This document shows positions 5,375 through 59,980 of a stretch of DNA of 64,000 nt, one piece after another. Made by a program: the position numbers and the translations under genes. The stretch is from SAR202 cluster bacterium (GTDB taxonomy: Bacteria; Chloroflexota; Dehalococcoidia; Lucifugimonadales; GCA-2712585), in the NCBI GenBank assembly GCA_016872285.1, contig VGZZ01000009.1, forward strand, positions 820 to 64,819, in the 5' to 3' direction. Position 1 is the first letter of the stretch. Each line of letters starts with the position of its first letter. The notes beneath the pieces are model-generated. The model searched no databases. It had not been told where the DNA came from and saw only the letters and a list, made by a program, of their open reading frames with translations.

Positions 5375-5410
5375 CAGCCGACTCCTTAGATATAGCGAGG
5401 CTACCTCATC

Positions 5411-6661
5411 TTAGCATCCCCGGCAGGCCGCCTCAATGCTGACGAATTCATTCTTGAATTCCTGGTAGCTGGAAAATTTGGCTAGATCCCGGACGAACTG
5501 CCCTGGGGAAGAAACGGCGGCGCGGAAAGCCTCCAGCTCTTCATCTACGGTGCTGACGGAGGCGGCGCTTTGGGCGTAGGCGCCGTGGAAGGCGAAATAG
5601 GCCTGATTGAGCTTGCGGATGTAGTAACCGTTGTCGAGGAACAGCAAGCGGCGCTCCTCCATGATCCTTTCCGCAGTCTCAATCTCTCCCAGCGCCAGCA
5701 GTTCCTCTACTTCCAGTCTGGTGGTCTGCATTTCGCCTCGGAAATCAAAGATTTCAAGGATTTTCACCACTTCTTGAAGCTGGCCGTCTGAAAGAATGAC
5801 CGGCTTTGTCAGCGTCTTGCCGGTAATGATTTCATAGACCTTATCCCCAATTTCGCGGCCCGCGAGGTTGGCGGCGGACTCGTTGAGGGATGTGGTGTCA
5901 GAGTCGCGCCCGTAGTTCATACCCAGGGGCCGGAAGAACCAGTATTGGTGAAGCCACTCGTGGACGGCAGTGGACAGGGCGTGGCGGAGGCCGCCGTTGG
6001 GCGGGACTATGCTGGGGTAGGTGGCAATACCGCCGATGTCGACCACCAGAGCGGACAGACCTCTAGACTTAAGGATTTCGTGTTCCAGGGCTTCCCTTTG
6101 ATCGAGGCTGACATCCGGCCTGAGGGTGACGTTGCCCTGACGCTTGATGGCGTCCCGCGGGGAGGTGACCAGGACGGTGGGCGGCAGGACCAACTCCATG
6201 TCCACCGGCGGCCAGAGAAGGCCGAAGGGCCCGCCGAAGCCTTCCTGGACCAGGACCTTGCTCACCAGGGATTCGATGCGCTCTTCGACTCGGGCCTTGT
6301 CTCGGTCTTGAAGGGACTGCAACTCTTTTATAAGCTGCCTTGCGCCCGACTCCTCTCTATCCGAGGCTGTTTGAGAGTAAAGCACCTCTTCCAACTGGTT
6401 TATTTCGTCAGCCCGCTCGAAATACTGACGCACCCGGGCGATTTCCTCTTCTTCGCTCATGTTTTCGCTCCAGGGCATGGCACGGCCCAGGAGGTGAAGC
6501 CACTTCCCCATGAAATTTTTCATCTCCCAGCTTACGATTCCCCATTTGTAAGGAGTCGACGGGGAAGCGGACGACAGGGAGCCGCTGGAATCCTGGCCCA
6601 CGGAAAGCATCAGCATGGCGATGAAGAATATGGCGATGTATCGGTTCAAGAAAAGTCTCAC
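5411..6661 (-). CDS. Membrane-anchored hypothetical protein with an HExxH motif (putative Zn metalloprotease)
   Basis: 416 aa with an N-terminal TM segment (IAIFFIAMLMLSV), a charged coiled-coil-like segment and an AVHEWLHQY (HExxH) motif. Confidence 0.55.
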   Translation of the reverse strand: MRLFLNRYIAIFFIAMLMLSVGQDSSGSLSSASPSTPYKWGIVSWEMKNFMGKWLHLLGRAMPWSENMSEEEEIARVRQYFERADEINQLEEVLYSQTASDREESGARQLIKELQSLQDRDKARVEERIESLVSKVLVQEGFGGPFGLLWPPVDMELVLPPTVLVTSPRDAIKRQGNVTLRPDVSLDQREALEHEILKSRGLSALVVDIGGIATYPSIVPPNGGLRHALSTAVHEWLHQYWFFRPLGMNYGRDSDTTSLNESAANLAGREIGDKVYEIITGKTLTKPVILSDGQLQEVVKILEIFDFRGEMQTTRLEVEELLALGEIETAERIMEERRLLFLDNGYYIRKLNQAYFAFHGAYAQSAASVSTVDEELEAFRAAVSSPGQFVRDLAKFSSYQEFKNEFVSIEAACRGC

Positions 6662-29273: not shown

Positions 29274-31133
29274 CTACTTAACCTGGGCCTGAATCCATTC
29301 CAGATATCGAGCGGTGCCGAAGTTGGAGAAGTTGGCCTCATGCTTGGCAATGATGGCGGGGTTGTAGGCAATGGAGGAGAAGACCCACACCAAGGGTATG
29401 CTGAAGCCCTTCTGAAGCCAGGCATCGGCAAACTTTATGGCCGCGGCGTCGCGGGTGGCTATTGTCGTGGCGGAGCGGCAGGCGGTCCAGAGTTCGTCCA
29501 CCTCAGCCCACTCTCGATAACCTAGGCCCAGGGTCCAGACGAAGTTGAAGCTGATGCGATTGCAGATGGGGCTGTATCCGGGTGAGGAGCTGTACATCCA
29601 GTTAGGTGTATCAGCGGCCACAGCTTTGGCGCGGAAGTCGGCGAAGTCGTTGTCCGTTTCCAATCTGGCCGTGACGCCAATGGCGGCGAAGTATTTGACC
29701 ATGGCTTCGCAGTGGCCCGGCCAGTCAGGGATAACGTTGTGGCTGCGCAGGCAGTTGAGGCGGGTTGTGAAGCCGTTGGGATAGCCGGCCTTGGCCAGCA
29801 TGTCCTTGGCCTTGGCCACGTCAAAGGGGTAAGGCCAGCCGCCCTCTTTGCCGGTCTTGCCGTTGGGGCCCGGGACAGGGGCCCATCGGTCCTGCCAGTC
29901 GGTGCGCCAGGTGGGGTATTCGTCCACCAAGGGGAAGCCCTCACCATTATAGAAAACCTGGTTGAACTCAGTACGATTAATGGCGTGGTTCAACGCAACT
30001 CGGACTTCCGGCTTACGCAAGGGGTCGTTGGGGTCGTAGCCCTTACGAGCGCCGCAGGCAGACTGCCCTTGGGGCGGCTTGCCGTCCACGCAGTACCATT
30101 CAGGGCGGTAGTGGATGAAGGTAACGCCCTGGTTCACGCTGGGCAGGGTGCTCTTCTGAATTCTAAAGCCGCCTTGAAGAATCTTGGCCCGCTGGTCCTG
30201 CACCAGGGGTATCATGTCGGCTTCTTTGGCGAAGAGCATGGCCACACGAGTGGCGGCTTCTGCTATCTGGAACATCTGAACTTCTTCAAAGTCGGGAGTT
30301 TTGCGCCAATGGTTGGCGACCCGCTTGTGGAGGTAGTACTGGTTTATCTGGCGTTCCACGAAGGTGAAGGGGCCGGTGCCGATGGGGTCGGCCTGGTAAC
30401 CTTCCTCGCCACCTACGGCGGTCCAGTGGTCTGCGCTAAGAATGCCAGATTCCCATACGTCTGAAACGTTGAAGCCCAAGTCCAGGTTGACATTGGGGGA
30501 GGTAAGCACAACGGTGTAGTCATCGGGAGTCGCCCAGTTGGCAGGAAGGCCGAAGAGGCTTTCCCATCGGGCGGGGCTCTGGGAGAGCTTAGTATTAACA
30601 ACACCCTTTTCGCCGATGAGGAGGTCCCAGGATAGGAGGACGTCTTTGGCGCTAAAGGTGTCGTTGGTGGCCTTGCCGTCCTTGTAGAAGGGGACGTTCC
30701 TCTTCAAGTTGAAGGTCCATGTCTTGCCGTCAGCGGCGACGGACCATTTTTCCGCCAGCTCGGGTATCTCTTCGTTGCTCTTGATATCATGGCCGATGAG
30801 ATGCTCGTAGGCGGGCATCTTGGACCAGGTGACCTGGTTTCCAGCGTAGGGCACGGTGTACTGGTGGGCGTCCGGCGAGTTGACTATTCGCAGCCTTGCC
30901 TGCACGGGAACTCTGGCCGCGGCAGTGGGTGTCCTAGCGGCGGTAGCAGTGGGAGAGGGTGTTGTCCCCGATCCAGTAGTGGCGGTGGGAGATGGAGTAA
31001 CCCCTGGCCTGGTGGTGGCTGTGGGTGTCTCGTCATCGCCGCAGGCGGCGATGGTGAAAAGGGCTGCCAGGATAGCGATCAGGAACCAGGGAATTATAAA
31101 ACGAGGCCTACCTGGACTCCGAAGGGAACTCAA
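29274..31133 (-). CDS. ABC transporter substrate-binding lipoprotein, family 5 (peptide/nickel type)
   Basis: 619 aa with lipobox TIAAC, a Thr/Pro-rich linker and family-5 SBP length and features. No permease or ATPase gene is nearby. Confidence 0.75.
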   Translation of the reverse strand: MSSLRSPGRPRFIIPWFLIAILAALFTIAACGDDETPTATTRPGVTPSPTATTGSGTTPSPTATAARTPTAAARVPVQARLRIVNSPDAHQYTVPYAGNQVTWSKMPAYEHLIGHDIKSNEEIPELAEKWSVAADGKTWTFNLKRNVPFYKDGKATNDTFSAKDVLLSWDLLIGEKGVVNTKLSQSPARWESLFGLPANWATPDDYTVVLTSPNVNLDLGFNVSDVWESGILSADHWTAVGGEEGYQADPIGTGPFTFVERQINQYYLHKRVANHWRKTPDFEEVQMFQIAEAATRVAMLFAKEADMIPLVQDQRAKILQGGFRIQKSTLPSVNQGVTFIHYRPEWYCVDGKPPQGQSACGARKGYDPNDPLRKPEVRVALNHAINRTEFNQVFYNGEGFPLVDEYPTWRTDWQDRWAPVPGPNGKTGKEGGWPYPFDVAKAKDMLAKAGYPNGFTTRLNCLRSHNVIPDWPGHCEAMVKYFAAIGVTARLETDNDFADFRAKAVAADTPNWMYSSSPGYSPICNRISFNFVWTLGLGYREWAEVDELWTACRSATTIATRDAAAIKFADAWLQKGFSIPLVWVFSSIAYNPAIIAKHEANFSNFGTARYLEWIQAQVK

Positions 31134-32144: not shown

Positions 32145-35100
32145 CTACTTGTCTTCGGCCTCAGCCTCTTCCGATTCTTCCTCCGAATCCTCATCCGTGT
32201 CCACTGACTCGTCATCCAAATCGTCGTCGGAATCGGCCTCGATCTCATCTTCGTCATCGATGAGGCTGGCCTTGGGCTCCTGGCCGTTGCTGGACTCATC
32301 GTGGCCGTTGGTGAAGCGGGAGGCAAGCTCCTCTACCATGGCGCTGCTGAGCATCTCGCTCTCGGCGCCGGGGAGGGCCAGGCCTTCCGTACCAAAGGGC
32401 TCGCTGACTGGGGGCAGGGCGGTCTGGGACCGGGCGGGAATGAGGCGTCCGATGATGACGTTCTCTTTCAGGCCCTGGAGATGGTCGACGGCGCCGCTGG
32501 CCGCAGCCTCGGTCAGGACTCTAGTCGTCTCCTGGAAGGAGGCGGCGGCCAGGAAGCTCTCGGTAAGCAGGGACGAGCGGGTGACGCCCAGGAGGCCGGG
32601 GCGGGCGGTGGCAGGCTCGCCGCCCTCAGCGAGAACTTGGGCGTTTTTGGCCTGGAAGTCGAAGATGTCAACGGTGGCGCCGGGGATGTATTCGGTGTCG
32701 CCTGGGGTGTCCACCTGGACCCGGCGGAGCATCTGCCGGACAACGACTTCGATGTGGCGGTCATGGATAGTGACGCCCTGGGAGCGGTAGACCTTCTGGA
32801 CCTCCACGGCCAGGTAGCGTTCTACTTCCTCTTTGCCTTTGATGCGGAGAATCTCGTGGGGGTTGAGGGGGCCGGCGGTGAGGGCATCGCCAGCTTTGAC
32901 CTGGTCGCCGTCCTTAGCTAAGAGAACGGCGGAAGCGGGCACCATGTACTCGCGTTCCTCTATATCGGCCCACACGACGGAGATGTTCTTGCCTTTGATT
33001 TCCACGAGACCGCTGACGTTAGCCACGATGGGCTTGGCAGGTTCCTTGGGCTCCTTCTTGGTGGCTACGGGCGCAGCTAGGGTGTCGCCGGCCTGGACTT
33101 CCTGGCCGTCGGATACCACTAGCTCCAAGCCTTTAGTCAGCGAATAGTCTTCCTGGTACTCTTCCTTGCTGACAACGCGAAGCCTTCGACCCTCGGTCTC
33201 ATCCTTAACTTCCAGGATGCCATCGATATCCGAAAGGACGGCGGCGCCCTTAGGTATGCGGGCCTCGAATATTTCTTCAACCCTGGGGAGGCCGCTGGTG
33301 ATGTCCACGCCGGCGATACCGCCAGTATGGAAGGTCCTCATGGTCAACTGAGTACCGGGCTCCCCGATGCTCTGGGCGGCGATGATGCCTACAGCGTCGC
33401 CCATCTTCACCAGCCGGCCGGTGGCGGGGCTGCGGCCGTAGCACATGCGGCACAGGCCACGATGGGCCTGGCAGGTGAGGGGCGAGCGGACGTGGATGTG
33501 GGGTATCTCCAGGCCGGCGATTTTCTTCAGCGCCGCTTCATCGATTTCCTGGTCCTTGTCTACAAGGATCTCGCCGGTCTGAGGGTGAACAATGGGCGAC
33601 GCGGCCCTCCGGCCCAGGGCGCGCTCTTCCATGGACGCCACCAGCGGGTCGCTGGCGACGGCGTAGAGCCACACGCCTTCCGTGGTCTCGCAGTCCTCCA
33701 TCAGGATTATTACGTCCTGGCACACGTCGGTCAGGCGGCGGGTGAGGTAACCCGAGTCGGCGGTACGGAGGGCGGTGTCGGCGAGGCCTTTGCGGGCGCC
33801 GTGGGTGGATATGAAGTATTCAAGGGCGGTCAAGCCTTCCCGGAAGCTGGACTTGATGGGAAGGTCGATGATGCGGCCCTTGGGGTTGCTCATGAGGCCG
33901 CGCATGCCGGCCATCTGCTTAATCTGAGCGATGTTACCTTTGGCTCCGGAGGTGGCCATCATGGAGATGCCGCCGAAGCTCTTCATCTCTTCCTTAACGA
34001 TCTGCTCCATGGTGTCGCTGGCTTTTGTCCAGGCGGACACGGTGTGGGAGTACCGCTCCTCCTCGGTCATGAGGCCCTGCATGAAGTCTTCTTCATAAGC
34101 CTTCACCTGACTAATGGCTTCATCGATGACGGCCTTCTTGCGAGGGGAGACCTGGATGTCGTTGATGCCGATGGTAATGCCGGAACTCATGGCGTATTTG
34201 AATCCCAGGGCCTTGATGCGATCCAGCACCTTGGCGGTCTCAGCGTTGCCTAGGACGCGGTAGCATTCCGCCGTGAGGGCTTTGAGGCTGCCCTTGTCCA
34301 TGAGTCGGTTCTTGTATTCGATTTCAGGAGGCAGCACCTCGTTGAAGAGGATGCGGCCTACGGTGGTGTTAAGCCAGCCTTCCTTCTGCTTGGGGTCCCA
34401 GACCTTGACTTCGGCCTGGAGGTCAACGTGGCCGAACTCGTGGGCGAGGCGGGCTTCATCGAAGGAGAGGAAGGACTTGCCGGCGCCTCTGCCGTTGGGC
34501 CGCATGTCGGTTAGATAGAAGCAGCCGAGGACCATGTCCAAGGTGGGGGTCACCAGAGGCTCGCCGGAAGCGGGGGAGAGCATGTTGTGAACACTGAGCA
34601 TGGTCTCCTTGGCTTCGCGGACCGCCATTTGCGACAGGGGGACATGGACAGCCATCTGGTCGCCATCGAAGTCAGCGTTGAAGGCGGGGCAGACCAGAGG
34701 GTGGAGCTGGATGGCGCTGCCTTCGATTAGCACGGGCATGAAGGCCTGGATACCCAGCCGGTGAAGGGTGGGCGCGCGGTTAAGGAGGACGGGCCGCTCC
34801 TTGATGACCTCTTCGAGTATGTCCCACACCTCGCCTCGCGCACGCTCGACCATTCGCTTGGCGCTCTTGATGTTGGGTGCGATGGCCAGCAAGACCAGGC
34901 GGTGCATGACAAAGGGCTTGAAAAGCTCCAGGGCCATGCGCTTGGGCAGGCCGCACTGGTGCAAGTCCAGCTCGGGGCCAGCAACGATGACGGAGCGGCC
35001 TGAATAGTCCACACGCTTGCCCAGGAGGTTCTGACGGAAGCGGCCCTGCTTGCCTCTAAGCAGGTCAGACAGAGACTTGAGCTTGTGGTTATGGCTGCCC

Positions 35101-44451: not shown

Positions 44452-44850
44452 TTAATTCACGTCTGTCGTTTTACACAGGAGTTCTTTTAGCAGACCTTGA
44501 AGTTCTGTGATGCTAAAAGGTTTTTCTAGGAAATGTCTGATGCCGGACAGGGCAAGGCGTTCTTTGGTAACCTGGAGAGGCCACGCGCTGGTGAGGATGA
44601 TCGGGAGGTCAGGGTTCATCTCATGGAGGCGCTTGGCTGCTTCCAGGCCGCTGGCGTCGGGCAAGTTCAGGTCCATGAGCACCAGCGATACACCTTCAAG
44701 ACTAGCAAAGGCCACGGCCTCAGCGGCGGTAGTGGTAAGGATTGGAATGTAGCCTAGCTGCTCAAAAGTGGAAGAAAGTAAGCGGCCCACCAGCTCATGG
44801 CCTTCCACCAGCAGAATTCTAGCGCCCTGGGATGCGACGCCTTCAGTCAC
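44452..44850 (-). CDS. Single-domain response regulator (receiver only)
   Basis: ARILLVEGHE..LVLMDLNLPDASG..IILTSA..EKPF. I chose the GTG at 44850, 1 nt after the kinase stop; the track start at 44934 overlaps the kinase by 83 nt. Confidence 0.8.
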   Translation of the reverse strand: MTEGVASQGARILLVEGHELVGRLLSSTFEQLGYIPILTTTAAEAVAFASLEGVSLVLMDLNLPDASGLEAAKRLHEMNPDLPIILTSAWPLQVTKERLALSGIRHFLEKPFSITELQGLLKELLCKTTDVN

Positions 44851-44851
44851 C

Positions 44852-45619
44852 TTAGGGCTGTTGGACGGCGGGGAGCAGGATAGAGAAAGTAGTCCCTTTT
44901 CCTGCCTTGCTTTTGAAGCTGATGCGCCCACCATGGGCAGATACTACGTGCTTGACTACTGTGAGGCCAATGCCTGTGTGAGCATTGCCTTTTCCTGAGA
45001 AGAAGGGTTCGAATATTCTTGCCTGGTCTTCCGGATTAATCCCCGTTCCAGTGTCGCTAACCAAGACCTCCGTCATGGACTCTCTCGGGCTGGACGCCAC
45101 GGTCAAGGTGCCGCCCTTTTCGTTCATGGCGTCCAGGGCATTAATCAAGAGGTTGACCAGGGCCGACCGCAAAAGCACTTCGTCGCCGATGAGCGGCCGA
45201 TGGTCGTGTAATTCGATCTTTGCTTTGACATCGGCTCCGTATATTCTGGCCAGTTCGAGCCTGTAAGGTTCCACGTATCTGATAGCCTCAGTCAGCACTT
45301 TGTCCAACAGAACGACCTGCCTGGCCACTGGATTCTGGATCACCTCTTTGACTGAAAGGCGCTTAACCATCTCTTTAATGTCTAGAGTGACGCCCTTAAG
45401 AGAATCCAGCATGGACTTGCTCCCAGGCCGCTCATTAGACAAGGTCACAAGATCAATTGTGCCGCTTATGACCTGCAGCAAGTTGTTGATGTCATGAATC
45501 AATCCCTTAGCCATCAGCCTATTGGCCTGGGCCTCATTAGCCCAAGCTACCAGTGCCATCAGTTCCGTGTCCCACGGCTGGGCTTTAGCCGCGGTCATGT
45601 TTTGCGGCGCTGTCTTCAC
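44852..45619 (-). CDS. Cytoplasmic histidine kinase (HisKA + HATPase_c, no sensor or TM domain)
   Basis: H-box GLIHDINNLLQVISG at about residue 40; N-box LINALDAM; G-boxes DTGTGI and GIGLTV. Confidence 0.85.
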   Translation of the reverse strand: MKTAPQNMTAAKAQPWDTELMALVAWANEAQANRLMAKGLIHDINNLLQVISGTIDLVTLSNERPGSKSMLDSLKGVTLDIKEMVKRLSVKEVIQNPVARQVVLLDKVLTEAIRYVEPYRLELARIYGADVKAKIELHDHRPLIGDEVLLRSALVNLLINALDAMNEKGGTLTVASSPRESMTEVLVSDTGTGINPEDQARIFEPFFSGKGNAHTGIGLTVVKHVVSAHGGRISFKSKAGKGTTFSILLPAVQQP

Positions 45620-46227
45620 TGTTTCACCTCTTTAAGTTGATGCGCCGAAGTTAGTTTCTCCGTCGCGAGCGAGTGGTCAGCGGAACTGCCCGGCGAGGTA
45701 GATTTTTGCGGCGTCGAATTCGAGAGCAAGGCTCTGCCCAGCTTTAGCAGCACCAGCATCAGCCCGAGGATAATCAACAGGTCGCCGATGCTCCAGACAG
45801 AGTGGATAGGGAAGGTAGAGGGGATAATGTCCGAGAATAGCGCTAGGTTTGTTTCTTCTTCCAGCAGCAAGATGTTTTTTGGGTCTGGAAGCTGAGAACC
45901 AGGAGCGAAGACAGACTCTTCTATGAAGCCAGCCTTGCGCAGGGCTTCCGGCGTGACGGGCATTCGCCAACTGTTGAAGGCTATGACCAAAAAATTTAGC
46001 GCCGCGCCGGCAAACATTACCTTGAAGCCGAGGACTCTCAGGTTGGCGACTACACCCGCCAGCAGCAACAGATAGGAGCCTGCTAGAGCCGCGGTTATGA
46101 ACCCGCCGTAAGCCTCAATGGGCATGAGATAAATGCCGGCGAGTTGAAACAGCAGGGCCCCGCATAACACCCAAGACCATTTCAAGTGAGTGAGGGAGTC
46201 TATATTGATCAGGAATCCTTTTATCAA
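45616..46227 (-). CDS. Polytopic membrane protein (possibly DUF5317-like)
   Basis: 203 aa with about 5 hydrophobic helices and NFLVIAFNSWRMPV. TTG start. Its stop overlaps the kinase start by 4 nt. Confidence 0.55.
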   Translation of the reverse strand: MIKGFLINIDSLTHLKWSWVLCGALLFQLAGIYLMPIEAYGGFITAALAGSYLLLLAGVVANLRVLGFKVMFAGAALNFLVIAFNSWRMPVTPEALRKAGFIEESVFAPGSQLPDPKNILLLEEETNLALFSDIIPSTFPIHSVWSIGDLLIILGLMLVLLKLGRALLSNSTPQKSTSPGSSADHSLATEKLTSAHQLKEVKQ

Positions 46228-46254: not shown

Positions 46255-46317
46255 TACAAAAATGGCACTGCGGCTTGCGGCTAACCACCACCGCCCCTCA
46301 GTGCCATAACTGTAAGA
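46255..46317 (-). terminator. Hairpin + U-run after the small-peptide ORF
   Basis: The minus strand reads atggcactg..(structured loop)..cagtgccat followed by tttttgt. Confidence 0.5.
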
Positions 46318-46334: not shown

Positions 46335-46433
46335 TTATGGAGACCAGCTATAAGGAGCCAGGGCGGCCAACGCCGCAGCGGTAGCGACCAGCGCGGAGAC
46401 TAGGATAGCGATCTTTGCCTTTAAGTTCTTCAT
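46335..46433 (-). CDS. 32-codon small ORF: exported-peptide precursor or single-pass micro-protein
   Basis: Not in the track (<60 aa). A GGAGGT RBS lies 7 nt before the ATG at 46433. It reads MKNLKAKIAILVSALVATAAALAALAPYSWSP and ends in TAA. It is flanked by terminators on both sides. Confidence 0.5.
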   Translation of the reverse strand: MKNLKAKIAILVSALVATAAALAALAPYSWSP

Positions 46434-46474
46434 AACCCGACCTCCTAATTTCGTTGCACTAATGATGAAGGTCT

Positions 46475-46493
46475 ATGCTCACGAAATGCTCAC
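46475..46493 (-). promoter_or_regulatory. Two exact 8-nt direct repeats (GTGAGCAT on the minus strand) with 11-bp phasing upstream of the small ORF
   Basis: The plus strand has atgctcac at 46475-46482 and 46486-46493. The minus strand reads gtgagcatttcgtgagcat, then 8 nt, then tcatcattag (-10-like). Confidence 0.5.
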
Positions 46494-46504
46494 AAGGCGG
46501 GGAG

Positions 46505-46537
46505 AAAATAAAAAGGCTGCCCACTCTAGGGCAGCCT
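46505..46537 (-). terminator. Intrinsic terminator of the TPR/BTAD regulator gene
   Basis: The minus strand reads aggctgccc-tagagt-gggcagcct followed by ttttTattttc. Confidence 0.7.
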
Positions 46538-46562
46538 GATGCGTCATGGATAGCGGACCCTT

Positions 46563-48649
46563 CTAGCTTCTTGAGGCCGCTTCCACACGGAGCTGCTCAA
46601 GGCTTTTTGGAGGCTTAGCGCCAAGTTCTTTTAAGCTGACGTCCGAATAGAGCCTGTAGCGTCTCAACGCCTCCGGTCGATTACCGGCGAGGAAACACAG
46701 CTTAATTAACTCCTCGTGGGCGCCAATGTCGGTCCGGTCATAATGGAGGGCTTTCTCTAGAAGCGCAGCCGCTTCATCAAAGTTGCGTCTCGCCAAGTGG
46801 AATCCCGCTAATTGGGACAAGGCCCTTAGATATTGGATTTCGGCATCGTTGCGAATGGTTTCAGCCCACTCCGAGTAGAACTCTTTAATGAAACCGCCCT
46901 GGTATAGTTCGACAGCCTTGCCGAGCAGTTCCGTTCGCTCCGCATCCATGCGCGGAAGCTTCTCCGCCCGTTCGATTAAATCCCTGAACTCCTCCAAGTC
47001 GAACCTGAGAAGGCCTTTGGAGTTGATTTTATATGTTCCGCCTTCCTGGATAAGGCATTCTTTGTAGAGGGCTTTTCTGGCTCGATAAACGTTGTTGTAA
47101 AAAGCATTCCTGCTGAGGCTGGGCGAGAGCTCCGGCCATAAGATTTCCAGCAGCTCTTCTCTCCGCCTGCCTTCTCGATGGCACAAAAGGAAAAGAACAA
47201 CTCTTTGGCCTTCTGGCTCTCCCATTGGGCCTGAGTTATCTTTTCACCGTCTACCAGAACCTGGGCATCGCCGAAGCTGATGACTTCCAGCCTGGGGTAC
47301 GTGGGCGTCAACCTGGGCGAGATAATAGCAGGATCAGAGACCTCGATGTCCTTTTCCTGGGCGACTTTGAGACGAGCATACACTTCCACGAAGAGATTCT
47401 CGCCAATCTGCCTCTTGGCCCCGTATTTCATCACCTCAATCATTCGCCGGCCTTCAAGGCACAACAGCTCTTGGAGGTCCAGGCGGCGCACCAGGGTGGC
47501 GAGGTCCAGCAGGGATTGATCCAGCTCAGGCCAGCCGCGCAACCGGTAGAGAACATCCGCTTGGCCCAGCCTGGCCTTAACTACCTCCCGCACCGCTCCC
47601 GCGCCCTCCAGGGTGTCTATTGACTCCTGGATCTTGACCTTGGCCTTATCCAGATTCTTGTCGGCGGCGTCCAGGAAGCCCTGGGCCAGGGTGATCAGTC
47701 CGAGCTCATATTTGAGTCCCAACCGCCTGGCCTCATAATTAGCCTGCAGGAAGTGAGTCCTGGCCTGGTCACGACGTCCCACGGACATGTACACATTGCC
47801 GATACCCATGTTGGCGTAGCATAGGAGCCGCGGTTCCAGGGCGTCCCGGGCCGGGTCAAAGCTGCTGCGATAGTGCTCCAAGGCCTCATCGAAACGGCCC
47901 TTTTCCTTGAGGGCGTCGCCGATACCCATAAGCGCGATGGCTTCCACCCGCCGGTAATTGTGCTCTTTGGCCAAATTGAGGCCCTGGTGGAAATAGGTCA
48001 GCGCCTGCTCAAATAACCCCATGTCGGCGTAGGACTGGGCGAGATTGTTCAGCACCTCGCTTAGCTCCAGCCGGTTTCCAATCTTCTCGTAGCAGGAGCG
48101 GGCGTGGTTGAAATGCACCTGGGCTTCAGAGAGGCGACCCAGATGGGCGAAAGCCGTGCCCAGGTTGTGATGGACGGCGGCGCTCAGGTTCAAGTCCCCG
48201 GAGCGGGCGCAGAGACCGAGGGCTTCCTCCAGGTATTGTATGGCCTGGTCCAAATCGCCCGTGGCGCCGTAGATAAGTCCTAGCTGGCGAGAACCCTCTA
48301 TCCTCATCTCAGGAGCTTCAGCAGGACCTTTAAGCAGGGCCAGTCCGGCCTCCGCGTCTTCCAAGGCTACCTTGATATAACCTCTTAGACGAGAAGCCGA
48401 GGCCCTTAGCAGCAATGCCTTGGCGCGGACTGGCGTCGGAAGAACGTCGCCGTCGGACAGGATGCTGGTGGCTATGCTGACGGTCTCGTGAGGGCGCTGA
48501 AGCCTTAGCGCACATTCCGCTTGCAGCAGCATGAGGCCAGGGTCGAGCGTAGAGTCGGAGCCGGCCATGGCGCTGAGAGCAGCCTCCAGCTCCTGCCATC
48601 TTCCGCTGGAAGCTAGAGACTGGACCGCCTTATACCCAGTCTTGTTCAT
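46563..48649 (-). pseudogene. TPR-repeat + OmpR/SARP-type winged helix + BTAD transcriptional regulator, split into two frames by a 1-nt frameshift (pseudogene, sequencing error or recoding)
   Basis: Track ORFs 46976..48649 and 46563..47225 overlap by 250 nt. The winged-helix consensus runs across the frames: ..VLVDGEKITQAQWESQKAKELFF | LLCHREGRRREELLEILWPELS... The switch lies in a T-rich run at about 47185-47200. Confidence 0.7.
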
Positions 48650-54071: not shown

Positions 54072-55172
54072 CTAAGCCGCGGCGACCAGTCCAGTTACGC
54101 GACGGCCCATCTCAGCGGTGCTAAGGGGCTTGCTTCCTGGCTTGGCTATGTCAGCAGTCCTATAACCGTCAGCCAGAGCCAGCTCCACTGCCCGCTCTAT
54201 TGACTCGGCCTCTCGATTTAAGCCCAAGGACAGCCGCAGCATCATAGCGACGCTTAAAAGGGTGGCTACGGGATTTGCGATGCCTTTGCCAGCGATGTCA
54301 GGGGCGCTGCCGTGGATAGGCTCATAGAGTCCCAGTGCAGGCCCACCAGCACTCTTGGCGGAGGGGGCGAGGCTGGCGGAGGGCAGCATGCCCATGGAGC
54401 CTGCCAGCACGGCGGCTTCATCAGTCAAGATGTCGCCGAAGGTGTTTTCGGTGACTATTACGTCGAACTTGGACGGGGCGCGGACTAGCTGCATGGCTGC
54501 TGTGTCTACCAGCATGTGATCTAAGGCTACGTCCGGGTACTCTCTCGAAACTTCAACAGCTAGTTCCCGCCACAGGCGGGACGTTTCCAGCACGTTGGCC
54601 TTGTCCACCGAGATGAGTTTTTTACGACGCGTCCTGGCTAGTTGGAAACCTACATGGAGGATGCGGCAGATCTCGGCCTCAGTGTAGCGGAGGGTATCGA
54701 CACCGCGGCGGCCGGTGGGGGTCTGCCACCGACGTTTAGGTTTGGCGAAATAGAGGCCGCCGGTGAGCTCTCGCACCACCATCATGTCGACGCCCTTGAG
54801 GACTTCGGCCTTAACGGGGCTGGCGTCGATAAGCTGCGGGAACACTTTGACGGGCCGCAGGTTGGCGAAGAGGTTTAATCCCTTGCGCAGCGCCAGCAAC
54901 CCTTGCTCGGGTCGGACTTTGGCTTTGGGGTCGTCCCATTTGGGGCCGCCTACCGCGCCGAAGAGGATGGCATGGCTACGGCGGCACATCTCCAGAGTCT
55001 CGTCGCGCAAGGCGACGCCATGCTTGTCTATGCTTACTCCGCCGATGTCGCCGTAGGAGAGCTTGAAGGCATGACCGTAGAGGCCGCCCACGGCGCCGAG
55101 GGCTTTGACGCCCTGCTCGACGACCTCGGGACCGATGCCGTCGCCTGGGAGGACTGCGATGGAGAAGTTCAT
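54072..55172 (-). CDS. leuB: 3-isopropylmalate dehydrogenase
   Basis: 366 aa: [21 protein letters not shown] and [14 protein letters not shown]. Confidence 0.95.
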
Positions 55173-56465: not shown

Positions 56466-57869
56466 TTATTTCCACTCCCTTATATCCACAAAATGGCCCG
56501 CGATGGCGGCTGCGGCGGCCATCTGAGGGCTGACCAGGTGGGTGCGGCCGCCTTTGCCCTGGCGGCCCTCGAAGTTGCGGTTGGAGGTGGAGGCGCAGCG
56601 CTGGCCGGGTTGGAGAATATCGGGGTTCATGCCGAGGCACATGGAGCAACCCGCCTCGCGCCAGTCGAAGCCGGCGTCCTTGAATACGCGGTCGAGGCCT
56701 TCAGCCTCGGCTTGCTTTTTGACCAGGGCTGAGCCTGGAACGACCATGGCGTAGACCTTAGGGTTCACCTTTTTGCCTTTGACCACCCCTGCGGCGTTGC
56801 GCAGGTCTTCCAATCGGGCGTTGGTGCAGGAGCCAAGGAAGACGCGGTCGATGGCAACGTTCTGAATGGGGACGTTGGGTTCCAGGCCCATGTAGTCTAA
56901 GGCCCGTTCCGCCGCCTGCTTGTCAGAAGTCGATTTGAAGGAGGCGGGGTCGGGGACGCGGCCAGTGACGGGGGCCACCATGCCCGGGTTGGTGCCCCAC
57001 GTCACGAAGGGCTCCAGTTTAGCGGCGTCGACATGGACTACTTTGTCATATTTAGCGCCAGGGTCGGTGGGCAGGCGGCGCCATCGTTCGACGGCTTCAT
57101 CCCAGGCCTTACCTTTGGGGGCGTGGGGACGGCCTTTCACATATGCGAAGGTAGTGTCGTCGGGGGCGATCATGCCTGCTCGGCCACCGGCCTCGATGGA
57201 CATGTTGCAGACGGTCATTCGGCCTTCCATGGACAGGCCTCGGACGGCCTCGCCGGTGTATTCGATGACGTGGCCGGTGGCGCCGTCGATGCCTATCTGG
57301 CCGATGATACCGAGGATGAGGTCCTTGGCGGTCACGCCGAAGGGGAGCAGGCCGTTAACCCTAATCTCCATGGTCTTGGGCTTGTTCTGCAGGATGCACT
57401 GAGTCGCCAGGACGTGCTCCACCTCCGAGGTGCCGATGCCGAAGGCCAGAGCGCCGAAGGCGCCGTGGGTGGAGGTATGGCTGTCGCCGCAGACGATGGT
57501 CTTGCCGGGCTGGGTGTAGCCCATCTCGGGGCCGATAATGTGGACGATGCCCTGGTTGGGGCTGGTCATGCCGTAATACTTGACGCCGAATTCCTTGACG
57601 TTCTTCTCCAGGGCTTTTATCTGAGCCAGGGCGATGTCGTCGGTGATGGGCTTGGTGCGCTCCCAGGTAGGGATGTTGTGGTCAACGGTGGCGATGGTGA
57701 GGTCGGCGCGGCGGAGGCGGCGGCCCGCCATGCGAAGGCCATCGAAGGCCTGGGGGGAGGTGACCTCGTGGACGAGGTGGAGGTCTATGTACAGGAGGGT
57801 AGGCTTGCCCGGTTCCTCATGGACTACGTGGGCGTACCAGATTTTTTCGAACGTTGTTTTGGGGGGCAT
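56466..57869 (-). CDS. leuC: 3-isopropylmalate dehydratase large subunit
   Basis: [11 protein letters not shown].., [14 protein letters not shown] and [12 protein letters not shown] chose the ATG at 57869. Confidence 0.95.
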
Positions 57870-57960
57870 AGTCACACCTATTTCGAATTCGGTCTTAAGC
57901 AGCATACGCAGGCTGTGGACGCCTGCGTATGCTGCTCGAACTAGTGTAAAGTCGATAATG

Positions 57961-59526
57961 CTATGGGTTAGGCATCCCCACCATGGACGAGCGTTTCTGT
58001 GCGCCTTCCATAGCCAGCAGTCTGTTAAGGGCGTTCATGTAGGCCTTGGCGCTGGCTACGATGATGTCCGTATCGGAGCCCTTGCCGACGTAGAGCCTAT
58101 CGCCGCTTTCAATGCGGACGGTGACCTCGCCCAACGCATCGATGCCCTCAGTAATGGCTTTGACGTTGTACTCGGCCAGCTTGTTGGGGGCTTTTACGAT
58201 TTGGTTTATGGCCTTATAGGCCGCGTCGATGGGGCCGGTGCCGGTGGCGGCATCGGTCTGGGGCTTGCCGTCGGGGCCGATGAGGCGCACCGTGGCTGTG
58301 GCTACCTGGTGGTTGCCGCAGGAGACCTGGACGTGGTCGAGGGTGTAGGCGGGGGCCTCGGTGGCGGCGCGGGTCTGGTCGGACATTAGCGCCTCGAGGT
58401 CGCGGTCAGTGACCTCGCGCTTCTTGTCGGCCAATCGCTTGAAAGACTCGAAGACCTGGTCCAGCTCGTCCTTGGACAGTTTGTAGCCCAGTTCCTCGAG
58501 ACGGGCGCGGAGGCCGGCGCGACCGCTGAGTTTGCCGAGGACCAGGGAGTTGCCGCTGTGCCAACCGATGGAGGCGGGGTCCATGATTTCATAGGTGTTG
58601 CGGGCTTTGATGACGCCGTCCTGGTGGATGCCTGAGGCGTGTCGGAAGGCGTTCTGGCCGACGATGGCCTTGTTTGGCTGGACTGGGAAGCCGGAAATGT
58701 CGCTGACTAGGCGGCTGGTGCGGTATATCTGGGTGGTGTCGATGTTGGTCTTGACGCCCAGGAAGTCCTTGCGGGTCTCGATGGCCATGATGATCTCTTC
58801 CAGGGCTGCGTTGCCCGCGCGCTCGCCAAGGCCGTTGATGCACCCCTCCACCTGCCGCGCGCCGGCCTGGATAGCGGCGATGCTGTTGGCGGCGCCGAGA
58901 CCCAGGTCGTCGTGGCAGTGGACGCTGATGGTGGCCTTGTGGATGTTGGGGACGTTCTCGCGGATGCGGCGGATAAGGTTGCCGAACTCCTCAGGGATGG
59001 AGTAGCCGACGGTGTCGGGTATGTTAAGGGTGGTGGCGCCGGCGTCGATGACGGACTTAAGCATGAGGTAGAGGAACTGGGGGTCGGTGCGGCTGGCGTC
59101 CATGGCGGAGAATTCGATGTCAGGGCAGTAACTCTTGGCCCGGGCCACCATGTTCACCGCCATCTCCAGGACCTCTTCGCGGTTCTTCTTGAGCTGGTGC
59201 ATGAGATGGATGTCGGAACTGGAGACGAATACGTGGATTCGAGGGCGCTCGGCCTCGCGGAGGGCTTCCCAGGCCTTGTCGACGTCGTTGGGGTGGGCGC
59301 GGGCGAGGGAGGCGATGGAGGCGCCGCGGACCTCGCGGGCGATGGTGGAGACGGCCTCGAAGTCGCCGGGGGAGCTGGCGGCGAAGCCGGCTTCTATGAT
59401 ATCGATGCCTAGCCTTTCGAGCTGTTTAGCGACCTCCAGCTTTTCGGAGGTAGTCATGCCTGCGCCGGCGGTCTGTTCGCCGTCGCGGAGGGTGGTGTCG
59501 AAAATCTTTACAATATCCTGCGCCAT
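57961..59526 (-). CDS. leuA: 2-isopropylmalate synthase
   Basis: 521 aa: [22 protein letters not shown] and the LeuA dimerisation/regulatory C-terminus. Confidence 0.95.
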
Positions 59527-59735: not shown

Positions 59736-59980
59736 AAAATAAAAAACCCGTCCACAAAAGGGACGGGCATAATTCCCGCGGTACCACCCTACTTCCCCGA
59801 TAAAATCGGGACGCTCGGCGCTTTAACGGTGCGTTCCGTTCAGTCCTACGTTAAGTTTTCGGACTGGCCGCTCCGGGGCGAGTTCGCCACCTGGGCTTCC
59901 TGCCTTGCACCTACCGGCAGGTCTCTGAAAGGCCAGGGTAGAGCTACTGCTCCCCATCACTGCGTTTGCTTTTTTCGTAA
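59736..59980 (-). promoter_or_regulatory. T-box leader riboswitch (probable Leu, CUC specifier) with an intrinsic terminator
   Basis: The minus strand shows a GA motif (tgatggggagcagta) and an AGAGA bulge. It has a distal loop ggtaggtgcaa and a specifier-like gcgaaCTCgcc (CUC at 59882-59880). The T-box sequence gtaGGGTGGTACCGCGgga lies at about 59777-59792. The terminator is cccgtcc-cttttgt-ggacggg followed by ttttttatttt (59767-59736). Confidence 0.8.

What the first reader, a model, noticed from the sequence alone, without database searches (positions are those of the whole stretch)
46335..48649. TPR-sensor / winged-helix-BTAD regulator followed by a terminator-flanked 32-codon exported-peptide-like gene: candidate peptide-signalling cassette
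Seen in the sequence: the regulator gene (46563..48649, minus) ends in a strong terminator (46505-46537). Next come two phased direct repeats, a GGAGGT RBS and an ORF, MKNLKAKIAILVSALVATAAALAALAPYSWSP (46433..46335), that is too short for the ORF track. A hairpin plus U-run (46255-46317) follows. The peptide has a basic N-terminus, an ~18-residue hydrophobic core and an Ala-rich ALAALA stretch before a PYSWSP tail. That is either a Sec-type signal peptide releasing a 6-10-residue peptide or a single-pass micro-protein. Established knowledge: RNPP regulators (Rap, NprR, PlcR, PrgX) bind short secreted peptides through TPR domains, and the propeptide gene sits immediately downstream of the regulator. 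Inference: this could be an analogous circuit with a different architecture (TPR N-terminal, OmpR/SARP wHTH + BTAD C-terminal). It may control the downstream membrane protein-kinase-response regulator genes. I know of no described system with this layout.
Basis: partly seen in the sequence, partly recalled or inferred. Interest (0 to 1): 0.75.

Follow-up and report, generated by a model that had tools for sequence, protein, structure and literature searches.

The report
Conserved 32-codon membrane-peptide gene cassette
A 32-codon gene that annotation misses is real and conserved in SAR202-type Chloroflexi, always between a TPR/SARP-type regulator (broken by a frameshift here) and an uncharacterised membrane protein; whether the peptide is a secreted signal or a membrane subunit is still open.

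Summary
The small features are all present: a terminator after the regulator, two GTGAGCA heptamers 11 bp apart, a GGAGG site, the 32-codon ORF and a hairpin with a U-run. The "regulator gene" is not one ORF. It is 2087 nt and has a -1 frame break at a T4 run (47191-47194) inside its DNA-binding domain.

The small ORF is a real gene. It recurs, 32-35 codons long, in about ten other contigs, always after an orthologous TPR-SARP regulator and before a DUF5317 gene. Among close relatives pN/pS is 0.10-0.20.

The heptamer pair lies 8 bp upstream of a NAnnnT hexamer in eight aligned loci, seven of them independent lineages. This is the published SARP promoter geometry. The C-terminal domain matches the AfsR SARP domain (E = 2e-8).

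Best reading: a SARP-type activator drives an operon headed by an N-in/C-out single-pass micro-protein. Transcription then continues into DUF5317, a histidine kinase and a receiver. The peptide most likely acts in the membrane with DUF5317.

The RRNPP-like pheromone reading is not excluded (about 0.2), but nothing here shows export, cleavage or TPR binding. No Pfam or NCBIfam family and no paper in the library covers the peptide or this cassette. DUF5317 is a Pfam family that no paper there mentions.

The parts
46976..48649 (-). Regulator, 5' ORF (557 aa). It holds the TPR superhelix, a linker and the start of the wHTH, then runs out of frame.
   Evidence: TPR_12 4e-27, TPR_MalT 1e-16. P0021 is named 'MAG: tetratricopeptide repeat protein [SAR202 cluster bacterium]'.
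47191..47194 (-). Frameshift site, a T4 run inside helix 1 of the winged-helix domain. One extra T restores KAKELFFFLLCHREG, as in the orthologues.
   Evidence: The alignment to AfsR runs across this site. The same break is in L001.
46563..47225 (-). Regulator, 3' ORF (220 aa in the -1 frame). It holds the rest of the OmpR-type wHTH and the BTA domain, which together form the SARP domain.
   Evidence: BTAD 7e-13 in the repaired protein. AfsR SARP domain 8hvr_I, E = 2.3e-8.
46504..46537 (-). Intrinsic terminator of the regulator gene.
   Evidence: Equivalent hairpins with T-runs follow the regulator in L004, L007, L008, L028 and L032.
46476..46493 (-). Predicted SARP operator: GTGAGCA-tttc-GTGAGCA, two heptamers with an 11-bp period.
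   Evidence: unique in the window; one exact copy per orthologous locus, at the same place; anchored comparison of 8 loci.
46462..46467 (-). Predicted weak -10 hexamer CATCAT, 8 bp after the 3' heptamer.
   Evidence: all 8 loci have NAnnnT at this offset. The rule is quoted from PMC10936776.
46441..46445 (-). Shine-Dalgarno GGAGG, 7 nt before the ATG.
   Evidence: A purine-rich site (GGAGG in seven of the eight loci, GGGGGG in L029) is present in every locus.
46335..46433 (-). 32-codon gene for a micro-protein. It has a basic N-flank (+3), a 19-residue hydrophobic core (8-26, mean Kyte-Doolittle 2.49) and the tail PYSWSP.
   Evidence: (called as a gene in two assemblies).
46257..46307 (-). Hairpin plus U5 between the small gene and DUF5317. 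It is probably a leaky terminator or a transcript-stabilising hairpin.
   Evidence: The hairpin is conserved in L004 and L005, with 4 of 22 pairs compensated, but the U-run is found only here.
45616..46227 (-). DUF5317 polytopic membrane protein (203 aa, TTG start about 30 nt after the U-run).
   Evidence: PF17248, 5e-28; invariant residues. AlphaFold2 model; fused to a kinase domain in P0004.
44852..45619 (-). Soluble histidine-kinase core (255 aa). Its GTG start overlaps the DUF5317 stop as GTGA.
44452..44850 (-). Receiver-only response regulator (132 aa).

Best explanation
This is a conserved chromosomal cassette of SAR202-related Chloroflexota.

Shown here:
1. The regulator is a cytoplasmic protein with about 11 TPR hairpins, a flexible linker and a C-terminal SARP domain (OmpR-type winged helix plus BTA). 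This is the reverse of the domain order in AfsR-type large SARPs.
2. The 32-codon ORF is a protein-coding gene under purifying selection.
3. The ORF always lies between this regulator and a DUF5317 gene.
4. In front of the ORF are two GTGAGCA-like heptamers 11 bp apart. They lie 8 bp upstream of a NAnnnT hexamer and 42-54 nt from the start codon.

Inferred:
- The regulator binds these repeats as two protomers in place of a -35 element. It then recruits RNA polymerase, as AfsR does at afsS.
- The transcript encodes the micro-protein first. It then reads through a conserved hairpin into DUF5317, which is translationally coupled to a histidine-kinase core, and into a receiver protein.
- The micro-protein inserts N-in/C-out as a single helix, with its six-residue aromatic tail at the outer membrane face.
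- It stays in the membrane and works with DUF5317. DUF5317 here serves as the membrane module of a split sensor kinase.
- The TPR domain senses an unknown cytoplasmic ligand or partner.

In this genome the activator carries a frameshift in its DNA-binding domain. The cassette may therefore now depend on basal transcription or on the two-component system.
For: Real gene:
- The ORF is called in two assemblies.
- Homologous ORFs of 32-35 codons are found in L004, L005, L007, L008, L010, L028, L029, L032 and P0099. One more 32-aa gene call of unseen sequence sits at the same place in the P0002 contig.
- pN/pS is 0.10-0.20 at pS 0.40-0.56 among the close relatives, while the neighbouring DUF5317 proteins are only 64-69% identical.
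- Every locus has a purine-rich ribosome-binding site, GGAGG in seven of the eight and GGGGGG in L029.

Membrane design:
- All members have an N-flank of +3 or +4, a 19-residue core with mean Kyte-Doolittle 2.1-2.9, and a short neutral or acidic tail.

SARP domain:
- BTAD scores 7e-13 and the AfsR SARP domain scores 2.3e-8.
- The AlphaFold2 model of orthologue P0026 has pLDDT 86.5.

Operator:
- The exact box is unique in the 64 kb window.
- It occurs once per orthologous locus, at the same place.
- The 8-bp offset to a NAnnnT hexamer holds in 8 of 8 loci. This matches the rule 'repeats 11 or 22 bp apart, 3' repeat 8 bp from the -10' and the weak afsS -10 CACTGT (PMC10936776).

Link to DUF5317 and signalling:
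- Gaps between the small ORF and DUF5317 are 22-110 nt in most loci.
- DUF5317 is fused to a kinase domain in P0004, and its stop overlaps the kinase start as GTGA here.
- DUF5317 paralogues sit next to HD-GYP-type membrane proteins.
- The peptide stays conserved in the clade where the regulator is broken in two different ways.
Against: - No transcript, protein or binding data exist for any part of the cassette.
- The regulator is frameshifted here, so activation may not operate in this organism.
- DUF5317 paralogues outside this clade have no such peptide, so the peptide is not a general DUF5317 subunit.
- The peptide looks very much like a Sec signal peptide with an AXA motif, or like SHP/PrgQ-type pheromone precursors, and its tail varies between lineages as pherotypes do.
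- The most conserved stretch, AAxLA[AG][LVI]A, could be a protease recognition site rather than a helix-packing face.
- The TPR domain's closest structural matches, LGN and Pins, bind extended peptides.
Confidence: 0.5

Rival explanations
1. RRNPP/SHP-like quorum sensing. The 32-mer is exported and cut to release its C-terminal 6-9 residues. The mature peptide re-enters the cell and binds the TPR domain. The regulator then activates the peptide gene through the heptamer box, giving positive feedback, and also activates the downstream genes. DUF5317 could be the exporter or the processing enzyme.
For: - The regulator and the small ORF are adjacent in every orthologous locus.
- The regulator's predicted box lies in front of the peptide gene, which is the layout needed for feedback.
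- The peptide's size and design resemble SHP or PrgQ precursors. One member gives a sub-threshold hit to NCBIfam NF038244, 'quorum-sensing system DWW-type pheromone' (E = 0.0099, 16 bits against a cut-off of 29).
- Small residues at -3 and -1 (A/G-x-A) before the tail are conserved.
- The tail varies by lineage: PYSWSP, PYSWPI, PFDWSP, GYDWGP, GYDIGP, DFQWPI, DWQWGP.
- Weak sequence matches to NprR and RapH, and LGN-like peptide-binding TPR as the top fold match.
- DUF5317 has two invariant Asp residues and several invariant Asn and Ser residues.
Against: - Pro follows the AXA site in the window clade, L010 and L028. From general knowledge, Pro at +1 blocks signal peptidase I.
- The hydrophobic core is 19 residues with no helix breaker, which is anchor-like.
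- The transmembrane half is more conserved than the tail.
- The RNPP_C hit is below its cut-off and no RRNPP receptor appears in the Foldseek top 50.
- The TPR region also matches the MalT sensor type, and the larger paralogues are STAND/MalT-like.
- The regulator is disrupted in two lineages while the peptide stays conserved.
- No test supported a protease assignment for DUF5317.
Confidence: 0.22
2. An agr-like autocrine circuit. The peptide, tethered or released, is the ligand of the DUF5317-kinase sensor, and the receiver protein relays the signal. The TPR-SARP protein only controls expression.
For: - The gene order peptide, polytopic membrane protein, kinase core, receiver is found in the window clade.
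- DUF5317 is fused to a kinase domain in P0004.
- DUF5317 is linked to signalling proteins elsewhere.
Against: - The kinase and receiver are absent from the cassette in L007, L008, L029 and L032. There DUF5317 is followed by an ABM protein in L007 and L008, a 100-aa ORF of no known family in L032 and a transketolase gene in L029.
- The conserved core is therefore regulator, peptide and DUF5317, not the two-component system.
Confidence: 0.1
3. The small ORF is a leader ORF. Its translation, rather than its product, controls the hairpin/terminator and so the expression of DUF5317.
For: - In the window a hairpin with a U-run lies between the ORF and DUF5317, with no room for a second promoter.
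- The hairpin is conserved in the two closest relatives.
Against: - Selection acts on the amino-acid sequence (pN/pS 0.1-0.2).
- The protein design is conserved across lineages whose intergenic regions differ completely, with gaps of 22 to about 250 nt and no hairpin in L007 or L010.
- The U-run is missing in L004 and L005.
- The stop codon lies 20-28 nt before the stem, too far for a terminating ribosome to melt it.
Confidence: 0.04

Closest known systems
AfsR-AfsS of Streptomyces coelicolor (a large SARP and the small gene immediately downstream of it)
   Same: - The SARP domain is homologous (E = 2.3e-8 to AfsR structure 8hvr), and a TPR domain is present in the same protein.
- Both have a small gene directly downstream, behind the activator's own terminator.
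- The promoter has two direct repeats with an 11-bp period that replace the -35 element. They lie 8 bp from a weak -10 (rule from PMC10936776).
   Different: - The domain order is reversed: TPR-linker-SARP here, SARP-NOD-arm-TPR in AfsR.
- There is no NOD ATPase.
- The repeat sequence is different.
- The small product here is a 32-aa membrane peptide followed by DUF5317. AfsS is a 63-aa protein without such a hydrophobic segment (from my own knowledge).
- The host is Chloroflexota, not Actinomycetota.
RRNPP/Rgg peptide quorum sensing (Rap-Phr, NprR-NprX, PlcR-PapR, PrgX-PrgQ, Rgg-SHP, ComR-ComS)
   Same: - A TPR-containing cytoplasmic regulator lies next to a very small ORF.
- That ORF has a basic N-terminus, a hydrophobic core and a short C-terminal tail.
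- The regulator's predicted site lies upstream of the peptide gene.
   Different: - The DNA-binding domain is a C-terminal SARP domain rather than an N-terminal XRE-type HTH.
- The TPR similarity is generic.
- There is no evidence of export, processing or re-import.
- A DUF5317 membrane protein always accompanies the pair.
- The phylum is different.
MalT-type STAND regulators with a C-terminal SARP/BTAD domain (P0031-P0039, about 1050-1100 aa; split forms in L030 and L034)
   Same: They share a TPR_MalT-type sensor region followed by BTAD, at 25-31% identity over most of the protein.
   Different: - The window's family lacks the N-terminal ATPase and WHD.
- The two paralogues examined have neither the 32-codon gene nor DUF5317 downstream.
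Small single-pass membrane proteins that modulate sensor kinases or larger membrane proteins (for example MgrB/PhoQ, SafA/PhoQ, KdpF, AcrZ; recalled from general knowledge)
   Same: - It is under 50 aa, with one transmembrane helix and a positive-inside N-terminus.
- It is co-transcribed with a polytopic membrane protein and a two-component system.
   Different: - There is no sequence relationship to any of these proteins.
- No interaction has been shown.
- The gene comes first in the operon and sits under a dedicated SARP-type activator.

Membership tests
SARP-type transcriptional activators | An OmpR-type winged-helix DNA-binding domain directly followed by a bacterial transcriptional activation (BTA) domain. 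| tested here: met
   In the repaired protein, BTAD (PF03704) scores E = 7e-13 at residues 550-688. The C-terminal 248 aa align to the AfsR SARP domain across both sub-domains (8hvr_I, E = 2.3e-8). The AlphaFold2 model of orthologue P0026 shows strands and helices at 460-557 followed by an all-helical region at 558-681.
SARP-type transcriptional activators | Target promoter with direct repeats spaced 11 or 22 bp apart, the 3' repeat lying 8 bp from the -10 element. | tested here: met
   This is a sequence-level test only. GTGAGCA-n4-GTGAGCA, then 8 nt, then NAnnnT is found in 8 of 8 loci. The rule is taken from PMC10936776. Binding was not tested.
SARP-type transcriptional activators | SARP domain at the N-terminus, with any extra domains C-terminal to it, as described for 'large' SARPs. 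| tested here: not met
   The SARP domain is C-terminal, after about 430 residues of TPR and a linker.
SARP-type transcriptional activators | An intact reading frame in this genome. | tested here: not met
   A -1 frame break at 47191..47194 lies inside helix 1 of the winged-helix domain. It is also present in L001.
RRNPP/Rgg peptide-sensing regulators | A TPR-type domain of the RNPP kind that binds the mature peptide. | tested here: inconclusive
   TPRs are present. RNPP_C (PF18768) scores 22.8 bits, below its 26.5 cut-off. NprR (7e-8) and RapH (1.5e-4) appear among many generic TPR hits. The Foldseek top 50 are LGN/Pins, consensus TPR proteins and other eukaryotic TPR-repeat proteins, with no RRNPP receptor.
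RRNPP/Rgg peptide-sensing regulators | An N-terminal XRE-type HTH DNA-binding domain (or, in Rap proteins, a phosphatase/anti-activator function). | tested here: not met
   No HTH_3/XRE hit was found. The DNA-binding domain is a C-terminal SARP domain.
RRNPP/Rgg peptide-sensing regulators | An adjacent small gene whose product is exported, processed to a short peptide and re-imported. | not testable with these tools
   Adjacency and a signal-like design are shown. Export, cleavage and import cannot be assessed here. Pro follows the AXA motif in the window's peptide.
Sec signal peptide cleaved by signal peptidase I | A basic n-region, an h-region of about 7-15 residues, small residues at -3 and -1, and no Pro at +1. 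| tested here: inconclusive
   The n-region is +3 and A24-L25-A26 fits the -3/-1 rule. However, the hydrophobic stretch is 19 residues and +1 is Pro in the window, L004, L005, L010 and L028. It is Gly or Asp in the other members. No predictor was available.
DUF5317 (PF17248) | A match to the Pfam model above the gathering score (tested on the downstream gene 45616..46227). | tested here: met
   98.3 bits against a cut-off of 25, E = 5.4e-28. Invariant residues are S51, N62, G74, N78, N85, M89, P90, D133, S146, G148 and D149.
Lipoprotein signal peptidase (LspA, Peptidase_A8), considered as a possible identity for DUF5317 | Sequence or fold similarity to LspA, including its two catalytic Asp motifs. 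| tested here: not met
   Foldseek hit 6ryp has E = 2.6 and TM-score 0.22-0.26. hhalign probability against E. coli LspA is 5.4%. The PDB profile search returned no LspA.

The most novel reading that the evidence does not exclude
SAR202-type Chloroflexota may carry a previously unrecognised peptide-signalling system. In it, a 32-residue signal-like precursor would be processed or exported, possibly by DUF5317, to give a hexapeptide of the form x-[YFW]-x-[WI]-x-[PI]. A TPR-SARP activator would sense that peptide and feed back on the precursor's promoter. This would be an RRNPP-like circuit built from a different DNA-binding module, outside the Firmicutes.
Probability: 0.2. Interest if true: 0.8.

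Novelty: new variant of a known kind. Interest (0 to 1): 0.5.

Why it matters
The work identifies a conserved protein-coding gene of 32 codons that standard annotation tends to miss. It also gives that gene a concrete, testable cis-regulatory model: a SARP-type operator with the published spacing rules, found outside the Actinomycetota and attached to a SARP protein with reversed domain order.

It provides the first genomic context for DUF5317, a family that no paper in the searched library mentions. That context ties DUF5317 to signalling proteins: a histidine kinase here and HD-GYP-type proteins elsewhere.

If the peptide proves to be a diffusible signal, this would extend TPR-based peptide sensing to abundant uncultured aquatic Chloroflexi. 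If it is a membrane subunit, it adds a defined micro-protein and partner pair for study.

All of this is prediction from sequence. Nothing has been measured.

Tried and rejected
**Searches for more copies of the peptide**
- A back-translated pattern for the peptide tail gave 0 hits in genome contigs and only the already known L004 contig in metagenome contigs.
- The protein searches refuse queries under 40 aa.
- A tandem-duplicated peptide profile found only P0099, which is one more instance, and an irrelevant 48-mer.
- phmmer of the 32-mer against 1.84 billion representatives found one cluster.
- The family is therefore rare, or too short to detect at a distance.

**DUF5317 as an LspA-like or GxGD-like aspartyl peptidase**
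- I noticed motifs resembling F-N-x-A-D (FSIGD) and a second invariant Asp.
- Foldseek (E = 2.6), hhalign (probability 5%) and the PDB profile search gave no support, so the idea was dropped.

**Known RNA elements around the small ORF**
- Rfam at a relaxed threshold gave only chance miRNA-like hairpin hits.

**Known small-protein families**
- Pfam gave nothing.
- NCBIfam gave only sub-threshold hits.

**Programmed frameshifting at the regulator break**
- The site ttc-ttt-tcc is not an X-XXY-YYZ slippery heptamer, and the T-run is too short for transcriptional slippage.
- Intact orthologues have no shift, so this was rejected.

**DUF5317 paralogues**
- L013, L014 and the Clostridia loci L015-L027 lack both the peptide and the regulator.
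- More distant regulator paralogues (P0030, P0040) lack both the peptide and DUF5317.

**Literature**
- No paper mentions DUF5317.
- None relevant links RRNPP with Chloroflexi; the single paper holding both words is about a Streptococcus Rgg regulator.
- The SAR202 / small protein / quorum sensing search returned nothing on SAR202.
Full report
**1. What is in the sequence**

All features below are on the minus strand.
- The region downstream of the regulator holds a strong intrinsic terminator. Its 9-bp stem has 7 G-C pairs (46537..46514) and is followed by TTTTTATTTT.
- Next come two exact heptamers, GTGAGCA-tttc-GTGAGCA (46493..46476).
- A GGAGG site lies 7 nt before an ATG.
- The 32-codon ORF at 46433..46335 encodes MKNLKAKIAILVSALVATAAALAALAPYSWSP.
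- A hairpin at 46307..46262 is followed by UUUUU. It folds at -30.9 kcal/mol, with a z-score of only -2.1.

The "regulator gene 46563..48649" is wrong. That stretch is 2087 nt and holds two overlapping ORFs in different frames. One is 46976..48649 (557 aa) and the other is 46563..47225 (220 aa). The frames meet at ttc-ttt-tcc, a T4 run at 47191..47194. Adding one T gives a 695-aa protein reading ...KAKELFFFLLCHREG..., colinear with intact orthologues.

The break is also in a Logan assembly contig that is 100% identical to the window over 4885 nt (L001). It is therefore not an artefact of one assembler, although the underlying population is the same.

**2. Identity of the neighbours**

The repaired regulator has TPR matches over residues 120-310 (TPR_12 4e-27, TPR_MalT 1e-16) and BTAD at 550-688 (7e-13). 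Its last 248 residues align to the SARP domain of AfsR, covering both the winged helix and BTA (8hvr_I, E = 2.3e-8). That alignment spans the frameshift site.

An AlphaFold2 model of the intact orthologue P0026 has pLDDT 86.5. It shows about 11 helical hairpins (6-434), a disordered linker (438-456), a strand-and-helix winged-helix region (460-557) and a helical BTA (558-681).

Downstream of the small ORF lie three genes:
- a DUF5317 membrane protein (45616..46227; PF17248, 5e-28);
- a soluble histidine-kinase core (44852..45619), whose GTG start overlaps the DUF5317 stop as GTGA;
- a receiver-only protein (44452..44850).

The window is chromosomal. It also carries rpoB/rpoC, a leu operon with a T-box leader, typA and a CopA-type ATPase. 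The regulator's own database entry is named as a SAR202 cluster bacterium MAG.

**3. Is the small ORF a gene?**

An ORF of this size is not significant by itself, so the case rests on comparison with other contigs.

The exact peptide is called as a gene in two assemblies. In contigs whose DUF5317 proteins are only 64-69% identical to the window's, the same position holds these ORFs:
- MKSLKVKIAIIVSALVVTAAALAALAPYSWSP in L004;
- ...SKVRVAIIVSALVATAAALAALAPYSWSP in L005, cut by the contig end;
- a called 32-aa gene in the P0002 contig, for which no DNA could be fetched.

Between these close relatives pS is 0.40-0.56 but pN is only 0.06-0.08, giving ratios of 0.10-0.20. This is purifying selection on the protein sequence.

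Regulator orthologues of 38-46% identity were then traced to their contigs. Each one with downstream DNA is followed by a 32-35-codon ORF of the same design:

| Locus | Peptide |
|---|---|
| L010 | MGRLKNRLTVFIAVVLTLAAALAAVAPYSWPI |
| L028 | MQRVKRHLFVLLAIGLIVAAALAAVAPFDWSP |
| L008 | MKRVKRYLPTIIAIGMIAAAMLAALAGYDWGP |
| L032 | MRRFIKYWATIVGIVSVLAAVIGAIAGYDIGP |
| L007 | MKRNRFAKIALLVSTLLVLAAGLAALADFQWPI |
| L029 | MKLFAKKYTLFAILASTSLILAATLAGLADWQWGP |

. One more instance, P0099, came from a profile search.

All members share the same design:
- an N-flank of charge +3 or +4;
- a 19-residue hydrophobic core (mean Kyte-Doolittle 2.1-2.9);
- the stretch AAxLA[AG][LVI]A;
- a tail of the form x-[YFW]-x-[WI]-x-[PI].

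A DUF5317 gene follows in every case where the contig continues far enough. L028 ends about 420 nt after the ORF. The kinase and receiver are not conserved in the cassette. L007 and L008 have an ABM-domain gene after DUF5317, L032 an unassigned 100-aa ORF and L029 a transketolase gene. The conserved core is therefore regulator, micro-ORF and DUF5317.

**4. The promoter**

The exact pattern GTGAGCAnnnnGTGAGCA occurs once in the 64-kb window. About 5e-4 copies would be expected by chance.

It also occurs once in each of L004, L007, L010 and L029, always just upstream of the small ORF. L028, L008 and L032 carry one- to three-mismatch versions: GAGAGCA-n4-GTGAGCA, GAGTGCG-n4-GTTAGCA and GTGAGCA-n4-GTTAGCA.

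When the loci are anchored on the box, all eight have a NAnnnT hexamer exactly 8 nt after the 3' heptamer. The hexamers are CATCAT, CATTAT, AAAACT, CACACT, CACACT, CACAAT, CAAACT and TAAGAT. The start codon lies 42-45 nt after the box, or 54 nt in L029. The rest of the intergenic DNA does not align between the distant loci.

A structural paper on AfsR states the SARP promoter rule. The promoters have direct repeats separated by 11 or 22 bp, with the 3' repeat 8 bp from the -10 element. The same paper describes the weak afsS -10 as CACTGT (PMC10936776).

The geometry here matches that rule. I therefore infer that the adjacent SARP-domain protein binds this box and activates the small-ORF promoter. 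Binding itself has not been tested.

**5. Transcript architecture**

In the window only about 30 nt separate the U-run from the DUF5317 start codon. DUF5317, the kinase and the receiver must therefore be transcribed by read-through of the hairpin.

The hairpin is conserved in L004 and L005, with 4 of 22 pairs compensated, but neither has the U-run. L007 and L010 have gaps of only 22-45 nt and no hairpin.

The element is thus clade-specific. It may be a leaky terminator, which would give more peptide message than DUF5317 message, or it may be a stabilising hairpin. No Rfam family matches it.

**6. What the peptide does**

Two readings fit the data.

*(a) A single-pass N-in/C-out membrane micro-protein that works with DUF5317.*
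- It is invariably linked to DUF5317, often tightly.
- The hydrophobic stretch is 19 residues, the length of an anchor, with no helix breaker.
- Aromatic residues sit where a membrane interface would be.
- The strongest conservation is inside the helix.
- Pro follows the AXA motif in half of the family. From general knowledge, Pro at +1 blocks signal peptidase I.
- The peptide stays under selection in the clade where the regulator is damaged. The window has a frameshift. In the 84%-identical relative the TPR ORF stops at residue 409, and a separate 212-aa BTAD ORF follows.
- DUF5317 behaves as a signalling-associated membrane module. It is fused to a kinase domain in P0004 and translationally coupled to the kinase here. 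In Clostridia and another Chloroflexota genome it sits immediately after membrane HD_5/MASE9 proteins.

- The regulator-peptide adjacency is conserved.
- The box in front of the peptide gene gives a feedback-type layout.
- The precursor resembles SHP or PrgQ in size and shape.
- The tails differ by lineage.
- One member gives a sub-threshold match to the NCBIfam DWW-type pheromone model (E = 0.0099, 16 bits against a cut-off of 29).
- The top fold matches are LGN-type peptide-binding TPR domains.

Against (b):
- The TPR similarities are generic. The RNPP_C hit is below its cut-off. NprR and RapH appear only among many other TPR hits. No RRNPP receptor is in the Foldseek top 50.
- The larger paralogues are MalT/STAND-type regulators.

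I put (a) at about 0.5 and (b) at about 0.2. An agr-like variant, in which DUF5317-kinase is the receptor, gets about 0.1. A pure leader-ORF role gets about 0.04.

**7. DUF5317**

No paper in the library mentions this family.

An alignment shows invariant S51, N62, G74, N78, N85, M89, P90, D133, S146, G148 and D149. The AlphaFold2 model is moderate (pLDDT 67.6; five helices, the last four long enough to span the membrane, and a poorly predicted loop from 85 to 146).

I tested whether it could be an LspA-like aspartyl peptidase that would cut the peptide. Foldseek gave E = 2.6, hhalign gave 5% probability, and the PDB profile search gave nothing. The idea is not supported.

**8. Distribution and novelty**

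The peptide family is rare or hard to detect.
- One cluster was found among 1.84 billion representatives.
- One further instance came from the 5.8-billion-protein search.
- The tail pattern found nothing in the GTDB species genomes.

All instances whose origin is named are Chloroflexi or SAR202 MAGs, or groundwater metagenomes.

DUF5317 paralogues elsewhere, and more distant TPR-SARP paralogues, lack the peptide.

No Pfam or NCBIfam model covers the peptide. No paper links RRNPP-type systems to Chloroflexi.

The closest described arrangement is AfsR-AfsS. There a TPR-containing SARP activates the small gene immediately downstream through 11-bp repeats. The cassette here differs in four ways:
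- the domain order is reversed;
- there is no ATPase domain;
- the small product is a membrane peptide;
- a DUF5317 gene is always present.

I class it as a new variant of a known kind.

**9. Verdict**

The peptide-signalling interpretation remains a minority possibility. The more economical reading is a SARP-activated operon headed by a membrane micro-protein that partners DUF5317.

Interest is moderate (0.5). This is a well-supported new micro-protein gene and a regulatory cassette with clear experiments to do, but its function is unknown and the organisms are uncultured.

Noticed in passing
window 47191..47194 (-); the P0022/P0002 contig (JGI 3300056388): The regulator is disrupted in two related lineages at different places. 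The window has a -1 frameshift in the winged helix. In the 84%-identical relative the TPR ORF ends at residue 409 and a separate 212-aa BTAD ORF follows. The peptide and DUF5317 genes stay intact in both. This may be regulator decay in the clade that acquired the kinase-receiver pair.
   Followed up: partly
L003/L004 (protein P0004); window 45616..45619: DUF5317 is fused to a histidine-kinase ATPase domain in one groundwater relative (353 aa). Here it is translationally coupled to the kinase through a GTGA overlap. This suggests DUF5317 acts as the membrane input module of a split sensor kinase.
   Followed up: partly
L014 3422..5378; L015 3613..5489; L017 3481..6341; L019 3403..5306: In Clostridia and in another Chloroflexota MAG, DUF5317 lies immediately after, and overlaps, a gene for a membrane HD_5 protein (HD-GYP-like, with a MASE9-type N-terminus). 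In L017 the DUF5317 ORF runs on into a TrmK-like methyltransferase. This is a second, independent link between DUF5317 and signalling proteins.
   Followed up: partly
L007 8945..9328; L008 9153..10428: In two cassette lineages, L007 and L008, DUF5317 is followed by a small ABM-domain protein. In L008 a MEDS-domain protein comes next. These take the place of the kinase and receiver. In L032 an unassigned 100-aa ORF follows DUF5317.
   Followed up: partly
L034 about 5400..5460, with small ORFs at 5532..6336; L030 2706..5866: More distant paralogues of the regulator are split or full STAND proteins (AAA/NB-ARC, WHD_MalT or HTH_77, TPR, BTAD). Downstream of one (P0040) are four direct repeats TTCCTTGGGCnn with a 12-nt period. 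Unannotated ORFs of 72, 52 and 63 aa follow them.
   Followed up: no
window 59756..59969 (-): A T-box leader (138 bits) lies upstream of a leuA-like gene (57961..59526). An aconitase-family gene (56466..57905) and an Iso_dh gene (54072..55172) follow, making a T-box-controlled leucine operon in a Chloroflexi genome of 59% G+C.
   Followed up: no
window 29274..31133 (-); L010 11188..13971: Family-5 solute-binding proteins of the oligopeptide/dipeptide ABC type lie about 15 kb from the cassette in the window and about 3 kb from it in L010. They would be needed for any re-imported peptide signal, but they are common in these genomes.
   Followed up: no
L028 peptide (about 7424..7522): The peptide MQRVKRHLFVLLAIGLIVAAALAAVAPFDWSP gives a sub-threshold hit to NCBIfam NF038244, 'quorum-sensing system DWW-type pheromone' (E = 0.0099, 16.2 bits against a cut-off of 29). 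The other members give no such hit.
   Followed up: partly
window 34576..34593 (+): This is the only other near-match to the heptamer box in the window: GAGAGCATGTTGTGAACA, with 2 mismatches. It lies inside rpoC and is compatible with chance (9 of 100 shuffles give at least 2 matches).
   Followed up: no
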